From assembly GCF_041248615.1 (NCBI RefSeq), contig NZ_CP158426.1: a DNA stretch of 64,000 nt, one strand, 5' to 3'. This DNA is from Escherichia coli (lineage in GTDB: Bacteria; Pseudomonadota; Gammaproteobacteria; Enterobacterales; Enterobacteriaceae). Position numbers and translations under genes: made by a program. This document shows positions 1,337-42,191 of the stretch, one piece after another. The notes under the pieces were generated by a model, which was not told the origin of the DNA, made no database searches, and saw nothing but the letters and a program-made list of their open reading frames with translations. Each line of letters begins with the position of its first letter. Position 1 is the first letter of the stretch.

Positions 1337-1424
1337 GGTGAGGTGTCCGAGTGGCTGAAGGAGCACGCCTGGAAAGTGTGTATACGGCAACGTATCGGGG
1401 GTTCGAATCCCCCCCTCACCGCCA
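1337..1424 (+). tRNA. serW: tRNA-Ser (GGA anticodon)
   Basis: 88-nt sequence GGTGAGGTGTCCGAGTGGCTGAAGGAGCACGCCTGGAAAGTGTGTATACGGCAACGTATCGGGGGTTCGAATCCCCCCCTCACCGCCA with long variable arm and CCA end; sits between infA and clpA as in K-12. Confidence 0.9.
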
Positions 1425-2003
1425 TATTTAAAGAAAAGCTCGTACGAAAGTGCGAGCTTTTTTTTTCGCATATTGCACTCCAGGGGGGATGAGAAGCCCC
1501 GACCGGGGTTCGACAACTGGCGCAGCCAGTTGGACAGACCACGAACACAGTGAGTGGGCTGCCCGCAGGGCGAGCGAAGCGAGTCAATCCCCCCCTCACC
1601 GCCATATTCAAAGAAGAGCTCGTACGAAAGTGCGAGCTTTTTTTTCGCATATTGCACTCCAGGGGGGATGAGAAGCCCCGACCGGGGTTCGACAACTGGC
1701 GCAGCCAGTTGGACAGACCACGAACACAGTGAGTGGGCTGCCCGCAGGGCGAGCGAAGCGAGTCTATCCCCCCCTCACCGCCATATTTAAAGAAAAGCTC
1801 GTACGAAAGTGCGAGCTTTTTTTTCGCATATTGCACTCCAGGGGGGATGAGAAGCCCCGACCGGGGTTCGACAACTGGCGCAGCCAGTTGGACAGACCAC
1901 GAACGCAGTGAGTGGGCTGCCCGCAGGGCGAGCGAAGCGAGTCTATCCCCCCCTCACCGCCATATTCAAAGAAGAGCTCGTACGAAAGTACGAGTTTTTT
2001 TTC
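1425..2003. repeat. Tandem direct repeat, three ~179-bp units, each with a terminator hairpin and a copy of the serW 3' end
   Basis: ...CCCCCCCTCACCGCCA recurs ending at 1424, 1604, 1783 and 1962; units near-identical with a few substitutions. Confidence 0.85.
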
Positions 2004-2242
2004 GCATTTTATCTGCCTGTACGGCAGTAAACGGTATAAAAATCGGGTTTTTCTTTCGGCTGGCTTTCTAAGCTGCCTGTACGGCAGTGAACTCAAATAC
2101 TACACGTCTAGCCCGTTGTTAATAAAGCAAAACCATCTCATTTTCCTGCTACCACCCTTTTTTATCCTTACCTTCCCGCAGCACTAATTATCAACAACTT
2201 ACCATCATCATCAAAAAAAGGGTCTGAACCTCCTCCACCCCA

Positions 2243-2280
2243 TAAACAAAAAGTCCGTAACCTCTTTCGAGATTACGGAC
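2243..2280 (-). terminator. Candidate rho-independent terminator of clpA
   Basis: Hairpin gtccgtaacc...ttacggac with A-run on + strand (T-run on - strand) just past the clpA stop. Confidence 0.5.
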
Positions 2281-2305
2281 TTCACCAACCTACCTAACAA
2301 TTAGA

Positions 2306-4582
2306 TTAATGCGCTGCTTCCGCCTTGTGCTTTTGTGCACTCTGGAATCCATAAGTCAGCTCATTTTTCTCTTTATCCAGCGCAACCGTCACCTGACCGC
2401 CGTCCACCAGCGAACCAAACAACAGTTCGTTGGCGAGCGGTTTTTTCAGGTTGTCCTGGATGACACGCGCCATCGGACGTGCGCCCATTGCCCGGTCGTA
2501 ACCTTTCTCGGCCAGCCAGTTACGCGCTTCCTGGCTCACTTCCAGAGAAACACCTTTCTGATCCAACTGAACCTGCAACTCGACGATGAATTTATCCACT
2601 ACCTGATGGATCACGTCGGTTGACAGATGATCGAACCAGATAATGTTGTCGAGACGGTTACGAAACTCCGGCGTAAAGATCTTCTTGATCTCTTCCATCG
2701 CATCGGTGCTGTTGTCCTGGTGGATAAGACCAATCGATTTACGCTCAGTTTCTCGTACCCCAGCGTTGGTGGTCATCACCAATACCACGTTACGGAAGTC
2801 CGCTTTGCGTCCGTTGTTATCGGTCAGCGTACCGTTGTCCATCACCTGCAACAGAATATTGAACACGTCCGGGTGCGCTTTCTCGATTTCGTCCAGCAGC
2901 AGCACCGCATGTGGATGCTTGATGACCGCATCAGTCAGCAAACCGCCCTGATCAAAACCAACGTATCCCGGAGGCGCACCAATCAGACGGCTGACGGTAT
3001 GGCGTTCCATATACTCGGACATATCAAAGCGCAGAAGCTCAATGCCCAAAGCTTTCGAAAGCTGTACCGTCACCTCTGTTTTCCCGACCCCGGTAGGGCC
3101 GGCAAACAGGAACGAACCGACCGGTTTATGTTCGTGACCTAAACCTGCACGCGCCATCTTAATGGCTTCAGTCAGCGCCTCGATGGCTTTATCCTGACCG
3201 AAGACCAGCATTTTCAGGCGATCGCCGAGGTTTTTCAGGGTATCGCGGTCACTCTGAGAAACACTCTTCTCTGGAATGCGCGCAATACGGGCCACCACGG
3301 ACTCAATATCCGCCACATTAACGGTTTTCTTGCGTTTGCTTACCGGCATCAGGCGTGCGCGAGCGCCCGCTTCGTCGATAACGTCAATGGCTTTATCCGG
3401 CAGATGACGATCGTTAATGTATTTCACCGCCAGCTCTACCGCTGCACGCACCGCTTTTGCGGTATAACGCACGTCGTGGTGCGCTTCATACTTCGGTTTC
3501 AGGCCATTGATGATTTGAACAGTTTCTTCGATCGACGGTTCAGTAATATCAATTTTCTGGAAGCGACGCGCCAGAGCACGGTCTTTCTCGAAAATGTTGC
3601 TGAACTCCTGATAGGTTGTCGAACCAATTACGCGAATTTTACCGCTGGAGAGCAACGGTTTGATTAGGTTAGCCGCATCGACCTGACCACCAGACGCTGC
3701 ACCCGCACCGATAATGGTGTGGATCTCATCAATAAACAGGATGCTGTTAGTGTCCTGCTCCAGCTGCTTGAGCAACGCTTTAAAACGTTTTTCAAAGTCG
3801 CCGCGATATTTTGTGCCCGCTAACAGAGAACCGATATCGAGAGAGTAAATCGTACAGTCAGCCATCACTTCCGGCACATCGCCCTGAACAATTCGCCAGG
3901 CAAGACCTTCTGCAATCGCGGTTTTACCGACACCAGATTCCCCCACCAGCAGCGGGTTGTTTTTACGGCGACGGCAGAGAACCTGAATAGCACGCTCCAG
4001 CTCCTTCTCACGACCAATCAGTGGGTCGATTCCGCCCACGCGCGCAAGCTGATTCAGGTTCGTCGTGAAATTCTCCATACGTTCCTCCCCACCAGCTTGT
4101 TCTTCGCTGTTTGGCTGGCTGCCAGGATCAGAAGACTGTGTCGGCTCGTCTTTACGCGTGCCATGAGAGATAAAGTTCACCACATCGAGACGGCTGACTT
4201 CATGTTTACGCAACAGATATGCCGCCTGCGACTCCTGTTCGCTAAAGATAGCGACCAGAACGTTTGCACCGGTAACCTCATTGCGACCGGAGGACTGGAC
4301 ATGGAAGACCGCACGTTGCAGTACACGCTGAAAACTCAGCGTTGGCTGTGTGTCGCGCTCCTCTTCACTGGCAGGCAGAACGGGTGTGGTTTGTTCAATA
4401 AAGGCTTCCAGTTCCTGACGGAGCGCAACCAAATCCACAGAACACGCTTCCAGCGCCTCCCGGGCAGATGGGTTACTGAGCAGCGCCAGTAACAAGTGCT
4501 CGACGGTCATAAACTCATGACGGTGCTCGCGCGCTCTGGCGAAAGCCATATTTAAACTGAGTTCCAGTTCTTGATTGAGCAT
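2306..4582 (-). CDS. clpA: ATP-dependent Clp protease ATP-binding subunit ClpA
   Basis: ORF 2306-4597; start placed at [24 protein letters not shown] (recalled ClpA N-terminus); two AAA+ modules with Walker motifs. Confidence 0.95.
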
Positions 4583-42032: not shown

Positions 42033-42111
42033 GCCACTGCTTTTCTTTGATGTCCCCATTTTGTGGAGCCCATCAACCCCGCCATTTCGGTTCAAGGTTG
42101 GTGGGTTTTTT
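42033..42111 (+). ncRNA. rybB: RybB small RNA (sigma-E-dependent)
   Basis: GCCACTGCTTTTCTTTGATGTCCCCATTTTGTGGAGCCCATCAACCCCGCCATTTCGGTTCAAGGTTGGTGGGTTTTTT matches recalled RybB nearly base for base; lies downstream of ybjL as in K-12. Confidence 0.8.
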
Positions 42112-42191
42112 GTTGCCTGAAATTTATGCCTTTTAAAATCATGATATTAGAAGCACTGTTTTTTAACGATGGCGACAAAATGGCGGCAGCG

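What the first reader, a model, noticed from the sequence alone, without database searches (positions are those of the whole stretch)
2033..2107. Duplicated 16-bp palindromic motif between the serW repeats and the clpA 3' end
ctgcctgtacggcagt occurs twice (about 2033-2048 and 2092-2107), roughly 59 bp apart, each able to form a short hairpin (ctgcc/ggcag). It is not a match to the LexA box. It may be a protein-binding site or a small structured element in the convergent-terminator region.
Basis: seen in the sequence. Interest (0 to 1): 0.2.

Follow-up and report, generated by a model that had tools for sequence, protein, structure and literature searches.

The report
Orphan type I-F CRISPR mini-array
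The duplicated "palindrome" is the hairpin core of two CRISPR repeats flanking one spacer that matches a CRISPR-associated gene (csy3); this is the cas-less CRISPR4 remnant already described in most E. coli strains, so the finding is real but not new.

Summary
The 16-mer is real and exactly duplicated, but it lies at 2013-2028 and 2073-2088, about 20 bp left of the stated coordinates, with a 60-bp period. On the minus strand the two copies are the stem-loop cores of two 28-nt type I-F CRISPR repeats. R1 (2092..2065) is GTTCACTGCCGTACAGGCAGCTTAGAAA and scores 50.1 bits against Rfam CRISPR-DR4 (gathering score 35). R2 (2032..2005) has a degenerate 3' end, as terminal repeats do. They flank one 32-nt spacer (2064..2033). 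The clpA-side flank is collinear with the CRISPR4.1 leader of E. coli strains that carry the I-F cas operon between clpA and infA; this window has no cas genes. The spacer's only credible match anywhere is the I-F gene csy3 (28/32) beside the canonical CC PAM. Other lineages carry different spacers at the same site, against cas1f (K-12, O157) or cas3f (32/32). This is the orphan "CRISPR4.1-2" array with an anti-cas spacer described by the Mojica group (2010-2016), which is reported to block uptake of I-F systems. This strain's copy is a rare, drifted variant with two extra spacer mismatches, one of them in the seed. Verdict: already known, low interest.

The parts
2065..2092 (-). R1: leader-proximal type I-F (CRISPR4) repeat, GTTCACTGCCGTACAGGCAGCTTAGAAA.
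   Evidence: Rfam RF01317 CRISPR-DR4 at 50.1 bits against a gathering score of 35, full-length 1-28/28. Identical to the repeats of the CRISPR4.1 and CRISPR4.2 arrays in I-F-positive strains. Invariant in all 10 strains aligned.
2033..2064 (-). Single 32-nt spacer, crRNA sense GCCAGCCGAAAGAAAAACCCGATTTTTATACC. It is an anti-csy3 (anti-cas) spacer.
   Evidence: Matches the csy3 coding strand at 28/32 in L003 and L004, preceded by 5'-CC in both. The common variant of the spacer matches at 30/32, differing only at third-codon positions. No comparable match in phages or plasmids. Control spacers reach only 17-22/32.
2005..2032 (-). R2: degenerate terminal repeat, GTTTACTGCCGTACAGGCAGATAAAATG.
   Evidence: RF01317 at 26.4 bits, below the gathering score; the stem-loop is intact but the 3' handle is degenerate. 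The same ...GGCAGATAAAATG end is present in all 8 orphan arrays sampled. The C4>T change is specific to this window among the sampled orphan arrays.
2093..2249 (-). CRISPR4.1-type leader, lying between the clpA terminator and R1.
   Evidence: Window 2400..2065 is collinear with clpA end, leader and first repeat in I-F-positive strains: 97.3% to L003 3010-3344 and 93.8% to L004 3369-3703. In the 10-strain alignment, 9 of the 60 columns next to R1 vary, against 30 of the 97 leader columns further away.
2187..2214 (-). Candidate sigma-70 promoter in the leader (TTGATG-16-GATAAT), pointing into the array. Support is weak.
   Evidence: Consensus scan scored 9/12. The -10-like GATAAT is invariant in 10 strains, but the -35 differs and the scan finds no promoter in the I-F-positive leader. 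Not evidence of function.
2250..2283 (-). clpA intrinsic terminator, which marks the upstream limit of the leader.
   Evidence: Terminator-like hairpin of 15 pairs followed by a T-run. The same hairpin is found in L003.
1969..2002 (.). Last copy of the serW terminator hairpin, which abuts R2. It would bound a pre-crRNA read from the leader (inferred).
   Evidence: Terminator-like on the + strand (1969-2002), with a weaker match on the - strand (1994..1977). The 179-bp tandem array ends at 2007.

Best explanation
Shown here: the feature is a minimal CRISPR array of the E. coli type I-F system (repeat type CRISPR4, locus 'CRISPR-III' between clpA and infA). It reads on the minus strand as clpA terminator, roughly 157-nt leader, repeat R1, 32-nt spacer, degenerate terminal repeat R2. 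It is an orphan: there are no cas genes in the window, whereas I-F-positive strains carry cas1f-cas3f-csy1-csy2-csy3-cas6f immediately after the homologous array. The spacer derives from the I-F gene csy3 and has the correct PAM. Inferred from the literature and from established I-F biology: the array is transcribed from the leader. With no Cas proteins in the cell, the transcript does nothing. If a mobile element brings in a cognate I-F cas operon, Cas6f would cut each repeat at the 3' base of the CUGCC/GGCAG hairpin. The Csy complex would then load the anti-csy3 crRNA, and Cas2-3 would degrade the incoming cas DNA or trigger primed spacer acquisition against it. The array therefore acts as a barrier to re-acquiring the I-F system, and the original self-targeting spacer may have caused the loss of the cas genes. 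In this particular strain the spacer carries two extra substitutions, at position 5 (in the seed) and position 19. Direct interference is therefore probably weakened, leaving priming as the likelier outcome.
For: Repeat identity: RF01317 at 50.1 bits for R1 and 26.4 for R2, with the consensus hairpin, and a 28+32 = 60 bp period. Leader homology with CRISPR4.1 of I-F-positive strains is 93.8-97.3% and holds across 10 strains. The I-F-positive locus layout is clpA, CRISPR, cas1f to cas6f, serW, CRISPR, infA. The spacer matches csy3 at 28/32 next to a CC PAM. The common variant of the spacer matches at 30/32, differing from csy3 alleles only at synonymous sites. Other lineages carry anti-cas1f (29-31/32) and anti-cas3f (32/32) spacers at the same site, all with CC. 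Controls: about 95 spacers from long arrays reach at most 22/32 in the cas region, and the chance of 28/32 or better in a 5-Mb genome is about 1.7e-6. R1 shows 0/28 variable columns against 39/157 in the leader. The repeat is in 5390 of 5426 genomes, while csy3 is in only 241. [quoted passage not shown] PMC8616872 summarises Almendros et al. 2016: orphan-array spacers match I-F cas genes, the arrays are constitutively expressed, they interfere with plasmids carrying the I-F cas genes, and they prime. PMC3506596 places the GG PAM at the leader-proximal side.
Against: No expression or interference data exist for this strain. The leader promoter candidate is weak and is not found by the same scan in I-F-positive leaders. 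The window's spacer is a rare variant: only 12 genomes match it at 99% identity or better. It has 4 mismatches to each known csy3 allele, including seed positions (5, or 2 and 5), so direct interference may be lost. R2 also carries a private substitution. The origin of R2 is unresolved: its 3' end (ATAAAATG) matches neither the CRISPR4.1 nor the CRISPR4.2 terminal repeat of the two I-F-positive strains examined. The primary 2016 paper could not be read.
Confidence: 0.9

Rival explanations
1. Inert relic: the array is simply the decaying remnant of a lost I-F system with no present function, and the anti-cas spacer only records the self-targeting event that removed the cas genes.
For: There are no cas genes in the window. 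The identical genome shows only one place matching the spacer, so it has no csy3 protospacer. This lineage's spacer has two private substitutions, one of which would be Leu>Pro in csy3, and R2 has a private C>T, which looks like drift. K-12 and the BL21 derivative have a stem-breaking mutation in R2.
Against: R1 and the repeat-proximal leader are far more conserved than the rest of the leader: 0/28 and 9/60 variable columns against 30/97. R1 plus 2 leader bases is at least 99% identical in 5206 of 5390 genomes. The literature reports that native orphan arrays interfere with I-F cas plasmids (PMC8616872).
Confidence: 0.25
2. DNA operator: the two 16-mers are binding sites for a transcription factor that regulates serW or clpA.
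For: The sequence has partial dyad symmetry and two copies sit 60 bp apart in an intergenic region.
Against: The similarity extends to full 28-nt CRISPR repeats with an exact family match. The region lies downstream of both convergent genes, beyond their terminators, so it is not at a promoter. The same units form arrays of 9-42 repeats in I-F-positive genomes. The dyad is only 5+5 bp with an asymmetric 5-nt centre.
Confidence: 0.02
3. Terminator or insulator hairpins, or a dispersed REP-like palindromic element, in the convergent serW/clpA terminator region.
For: The sequence can form a hairpin and is located between two terminators.
Against: The 5-bp stems are not followed by a T-run and were not called as terminators. 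Both genes have their own strong terminators. The motif occurs only twice in 64 kb, and the only Rfam family hit is CRISPR-DR4, which does not fit a dispersed REP family.
Confidence: 0.02

Closest known systems
E. coli orphan CRISPR4.1-2 array with an anti-cas spacer (Diez-Villasenor et al. 2010; Almendros et al. 2014, PMC3903273; Almendros et al. 2016, Nat Microbiol 1:16081, as summarised in PMC8616872)
   Same: Same locus (clpA-infA), same 28-nt repeat, same leader, same two-repeat/one-spacer layout, same absence of cas-F genes, and a spacer whose best match is an I-F cas gene beside the GG/CC PAM.
   Different: Nothing differs in kind. This strain has a rare allele of the anti-csy3 spacer, with two extra substitutions (positions 5 and 19), plus a private change in R2. 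Only 12 of 5426 genomes match the spacer at 99% identity or better.
Complete E. coli type I-F CRISPR-Cas locus (e.g. LF82, PMV-1, strain 504211): CRISPR4.1, cas1f to cas6f, serW, CRISPR4.2
   Same: Identical repeat, homologous leader on the clpA side, same orientation, and the same 60-bp period.
   Different: The window lacks all six cas genes and the second array between serW and infA. It has 1 spacer instead of 6-36 per array. Its terminal repeat sequence also differs.
Virus- or MGE-borne mini-CRISPR arrays and solitary repeat units (reviewed in PMC8616872)
   Same: A single spacer flanked by one complete and one degenerate repeat, relying on Cas proteins supplied in trans.
   Different: This one is chromosomal, at a fixed core-genome position, vertically inherited across E. 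coli, and it targets cas genes rather than competing elements.

Membership tests
Type I-F CRISPR array (Rfam RF01317 CRISPR-DR4; 'CRISPR4' repeats) | The repeat matches the family covariance model at or above the gathering score, with the 5-bp stem and 5-nt loop. | tested here: met
   R1 scores 50.1 bits against a gathering score of 35, full length. R2 scores 26.4 bits, below threshold, as expected for a degenerate terminal repeat. Hairpin folds at -8.6 kcal/mol.
Type I-F CRISPR array (Rfam RF01317 CRISPR-DR4; 'CRISPR4' repeats) | Direct repeats of 28 nt separated by unique spacers of about 32 nt (60-bp period). | tested here: met
   28 + 32 + 28 nt, with the copies 60 bp apart. This is the minimum possible array: 2 repeats and 1 spacer.
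Type I-F CRISPR array (Rfam RF01317 CRISPR-DR4; 'CRISPR4' repeats) | A leader next to the first repeat that is homologous to leaders of bona fide arrays. | tested here: met
   93.8-97.3% collinear with the CRISPR4.1 leader plus first repeat of I-F-positive strains. 10-strain alignment.
Type I-F CRISPR array (Rfam RF01317 CRISPR-DR4; 'CRISPR4' repeats) | The spacer derives from a protospacer flanked by the subtype's PAM (GG on the target strand, CC 5' on the spacer-sense strand, at the leader-proximal side). | tested here: met
   tgCC precedes the csy3 protospacer in both L003 and L004. PAM definition taken from PMC3506596.
[quoted passage not shown] | Adjacent cas1f, cas2-3f, csy1-3 and cas6f genes. 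| tested here: not met
   The array lies directly between the serW repeats and clpA. The genome identical to the window has a single place matching the spacer, so no csy3 protospacer. It is therefore an orphan array, not a complete system.
Orphan CRISPR4.1-2 anti-cas array (Almendros et al. 2016) | Located in the clpA-infA interval of a strain lacking cas-F genes. | tested here: met
   Gene order aat, infA, serW, array, clpA. Definition in PMC3903273.
Orphan CRISPR4.1-2 anti-cas array (Almendros et al. 2016) | The spacer's best match is an I-F cas gene of related strains. | tested here: met
   csy3 at 28/32. No better hit in E. coli genomes, phages or plasmids. Control spacers reach at most 22/32.
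Orphan CRISPR4.1-2 anti-cas array (Almendros et al. 2016) | The array is expressed and causes interference or priming against incoming I-F cas genes. | not testable with these tools
   Known only from the literature summary (PMC8616872). In this strain, the mismatches at spacer positions 5 and 19 may weaken it.
Transcription-factor operator (e.g. LexA box) | A dyad-symmetric DNA site positioned at a promoter and recurring at regulon members. | tested here: not met
   The site lies beyond the terminators of both flanking genes. The motif occurs only twice in the 64-kb window. The units are complete CRISPR repeats.

The most novel reading that the evidence does not exclude
The evidence does not exclude that this lineage's drifted array no longer acts as an anti-cas barrier. 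The array has a seed mismatch at spacer position 5, a second private mismatch at position 19, and an altered R2 whose C4>U change lengthens the predicted hairpin. On this reading, the invariance of R1 and of the repeat-proximal leader across E. coli reflects some Cas-independent role, for example a structured RNA or DNA element acting between the convergent serW and clpA transcription units. Alternatively, the array may persist as a priming-only sensor.
Probability: 0.07. Interest if true: 0.4.

Novelty: already known. Interest (0 to 1): 0.12.

Why it matters
The result explains an unannotated intergenic motif. PGAP does not call this two-repeat array in the identical genome, and the motif could otherwise be mistaken for an operator. 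Biologically it is a good example of a CRISPR array that outlived its cas genes and is reported to guard against their return. That helps explain why only 241 of 5426 complete E. coli genomes carry the I-F gene csy3 while 5390 keep the repeat. All of this was published between 2010 and 2016, so the finding adds one further rare allele rather than new biology.

Tried and rejected
- **Operator or LexA-like site:** rejected because of position (beyond both terminators) and because the units are full CRISPR repeats.
- **REP-like or terminator hairpins:** rejected because there are only two copies in 64 kb, no T-runs, and the flanking genes have their own terminators.
- **Phage or plasmid target for the spacer:** only partial 22-24-nt matches at E >= 0.2. 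The one full-length hit in the plasmid set is in a 4.9-Mb E. coli record and was not examined.
- **Leader promoter:** a 9/12 consensus site exists in the window, but the same scan finds none in an I-F-positive leader, so it is not relied on.
- **Origin of R2:** its 3' end matches neither the CRISPR4.1 nor the CRISPR4.2 terminal repeat in the two I-F-positive strains examined, so the fusion implied by the name '4.1-2' could not be reconstructed.
- **Conservation beyond E. coli:** an exact 33-nt leader/R1 junction scan of one genome per species found only 4 loci: two E. coli, one MAG with the K-12-type array, and E. whittamii with a 42-repeat array. Diverged junctions would be missed.
- **Primary paper:** Almendros et al. 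2016 is not held, so its content is cited through the group's own review.

Full report
**Observation.** The 16-mer CTGCCTGTACGGCAGT occurs exactly twice in the window, at 2013-2028 and 2073-2088 on the + strand. The copies are 60 bp apart start to start. None of 100 dinucleotide-preserving shuffles produced two matches, even allowing two mismatches. The order is aat, infA, tRNA-Ser(GGA) serW at 1337-1424, a 179-bp tandem repeat from 1406 to 2007, the motif pair, and then the 3' end of clpA on the minus strand, with its stop codon at 2306-2308.

**What it is.** An Rfam scan of the region gave a full-length match on the minus strand of 2065-2092 to CRISPR-DR4 (RF01317), at 50.1 bits against a gathering score of 35. 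It also gave a weaker full-length match (26.4 bits) at 2005-2032; only the stronger match reached the gathering score in the whole-window scan. Read on the minus strand, the feature is:
- **R1:** GTTCACTGCCGTACAGGCAGCTTAGAAA
- **Spacer (32 nt):** GCCAGCCGAAAGAAAAACCCGATTTTTATACC
- **R2:** GTTTACTGCCGTACAGGCAGATAAAATG

R2 keeps the stem-loop but has a degenerate 3' end, as terminal repeats of CRISPR arrays commonly do. No other CRISPR match and no cas gene is present in the 64-kb window.

**Relation to complete systems.** In E. coli strains that carry type I-F cas genes (strain 504211 = L003, PMV-1 = L004), the same chromosomal interval reads clpA, CRISPR array, cas1f, cas3f, csy1, csy2, csy3, cas6f, serW, second CRISPR array, infA.
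- Window 2400..2065 (clpA end, terminator, leader and R1) is collinear with the clpA end, leader and first repeat of the clpA-side array, at 97.3% (L003) and 93.8% (L004) identity.
- Both arrays in those strains have the orphan's orientation and the identical 28-nt repeat.
- In a 10-strain alignment of 8 orphan and 2 I-F-positive loci, R1 has 0 of 28 variable columns. The 60 leader columns next to it have 9, and the more distal leader has 30 of 97.

The window therefore holds the leader and first repeat of "CRISPR4.1", followed by one spacer and a terminal repeat, with the cas operon missing.

**The spacer.** A BLAST search of the 32-mer against 5426 complete E. coli genomes found two kinds of hit: the same or a near-identical spacer at this locus, and the csy3 gene of I-F-positive strains.
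- The match to csy3 is 28/32 on the coding strand in both L003 and L004. In both it is immediately preceded by 5'-CC. That is the I-F PAM, described as GG on the complementary strand at the leader-proximal side in PMC3506596.
- The common version of this spacer (L005) matches csy3 at 30/32. Its differences from the two csy3 alleles are all at third-codon positions and are synonymous. This is what one expects of a spacer captured from a slightly diverged csy3 allele.
- The window's version has two further substitutions, A5>G and T19>C. The second would be Leu>Pro in the gene, so both most likely arose inside the array.
- Only 12 genomes match the window's spacer at 99% identity or better.
- Phage and plasmid collections give nothing better than partial 22-24-nt matches at E >= 0.2. 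One full-length hit in the plasmid set lies in a 4.9-Mb E. coli record and was not examined.
- As an empirical null, about 95 spacers from long arrays in I-F-positive genomes reach only 17-22 of 32 in the cas region. The binomial expectation for 28/32 or better anywhere in a 5-Mb genome is about 1.7e-6.

**Other lineages.** At the same position, K-12, a BL21 derivative and O157:H7 carry a different spacer that matches cas1f (29-31/32, with a CC PAM). Strains M1/5 and EC100 carry a three-repeat array whose second spacer matches cas3f perfectly (32/32, with a CC PAM).

Census across 5426 complete genomes:

| Feature | Genomes |
|---|---|
| I-F repeat present | 5390 (median 2 copies) |
| csy3 gene present | 241 |
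| Match to the anti-csy3 spacer | 654, including csy3 protospacers, so roughly 400 orphan arrays |
| Match to the anti-cas1f spacer | 2579, including cas1f protospacers |
| Match to the anti-cas3f spacer | 915, including cas3f protospacers |

**Literature.** This is a described system. PMC3903273 (Almendros et al. 2014) places the I-F system between clpA and infA (locus CRISPR-III) and names the arrays CRISPR4.1 and CRISPR4.2. It names the single cassette left when cas genes are absent CRISPR4.1-2. [quoted passage not shown] PMC8616872 summarises Almendros et al. 2016 (Nat Microbiol 1:16081). According to that summary, spacers of the orphan arrays almost invariably match I-F cas genes, and the arrays are constitutively expressed. 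They elicit interference against plasmids carrying the I-F cas set, and they prime further spacer acquisition. [quoted passage not shown] The primary 2016 paper is not held in the library.

**Mechanism.**
- *Shown here:* the identity of the repeat, leader, spacer, protospacer and PAM, and the absence of cas genes.
- *Inferred from the cited work and from established I-F biology (my own knowledge):* transcription starts in the leader. A weak 9/12 promoter-like site lies at 2214..2187, but the same scan does not find it in I-F-positive leaders. Transcription would run through R1, the spacer and R2 to the serW-terminator hairpin. Cas6f supplied by an incoming I-F system would cleave the repeats at the 3' base of the hairpin. 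The Csy complex would be guided to csy3 on the invader, and Cas2-3 would degrade it or trigger priming.
- *This strain:* the mismatch at spacer position 5 (and at position 2 against the PMV-1 allele) falls in the PAM-proximal seed. Direct interference is therefore probably weaker than for the common allele, and priming is the more likely outcome. This is an inference and was not tested.

**Rivals.**
- *Inert relic:* the private substitutions in the spacer and R2 favour this reading. The strong conservation of R1 and the proximal leader, and the published interference data, argue against it.
- *DNA operator, terminator or REP-like element:* position, copy number and the exact CRISPR family match all argue against these.

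**Verdict.** The feature is the known orphan type I-F CRISPR4 mini-array with an anti-csy3 spacer, here in a rare, slightly drifted allele. Novelty: already known. Interest: low.

Noticed in passing
window 1406-2007: A 179-bp tandem unit in 3.4 copies follows serW. Each unit holds the tRNA 3' end, a terminator hairpin and an RtT-like RNA (RF00391; 45.1, 44 and 43.9 bits against a gathering score of 45). Copy number varies between strains: 0 in K-12, 1 in a BL21 derivative and in L006, 2 in L005, 3 here. In the window and in K-12, the CRISPR terminal repeat abuts the last terminator copy.
   Followed up: partly
L003 8576-8603 (-) and L004 8573-8600 (-), the cas3f-csy1 intergenic region of I-F-positive E. 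coli: A lone repeat-like hairpin in inverted orientation (GTAAACTGCCGTACAGGCAGCTAGTGCT; 20/28 to the repeat, stem-loop intact) sits inside the cas operon between cas3f and csy1. It could be a Cas6f-binding or regulatory element.
   Followed up: no
window 2033-2064 and 2005-2032: This strain's array is a rare allele. It has two private spacer substitutions (positions 5 and 19) and a private C4>T in R2 relative to the common anti-csy3 array. Only 12 of 5426 genomes match the spacer at 99% identity or better.
   Followed up: yes
L001 14396-14854 (NZ_CP076709.1): In strain CFIAFB20140388 an IS200C transposase gene lies between serW and clpA, and only the clpA end of the query matched (query 299-371). 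The array and most of the leader appear to be replaced or disrupted. In total, 36 of 5426 genomes lack any match to the repeat.
   Followed up: no
L005 1835-2432 (NZ_CP026723.1, strain 266917_2): A tyrosine recombinase/integrase gene directly follows the RtT copies, and no serW, infA or aat is annotated in the 2.4-kb stretch fetched. This suggests a genomic island integrated at serW next to the orphan array.
   Followed up: no
window 42036-42114 (+): RybB sRNA (RF00110) at 104.1 bits. This is an ordinary, known gene.
   Followed up: no
L015 (NZ_CP128875.1, E. coli TUM14771; 100% identical to window 1950-2320): The RefSeq/PGAP annotation of the identical genome lists neither the two-repeat CRISPR array nor the RtT copies in this interval. 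Arrays with more repeats in I-F-positive strains are annotated as direct_repeat/CRISPR.
   Followed up: yes
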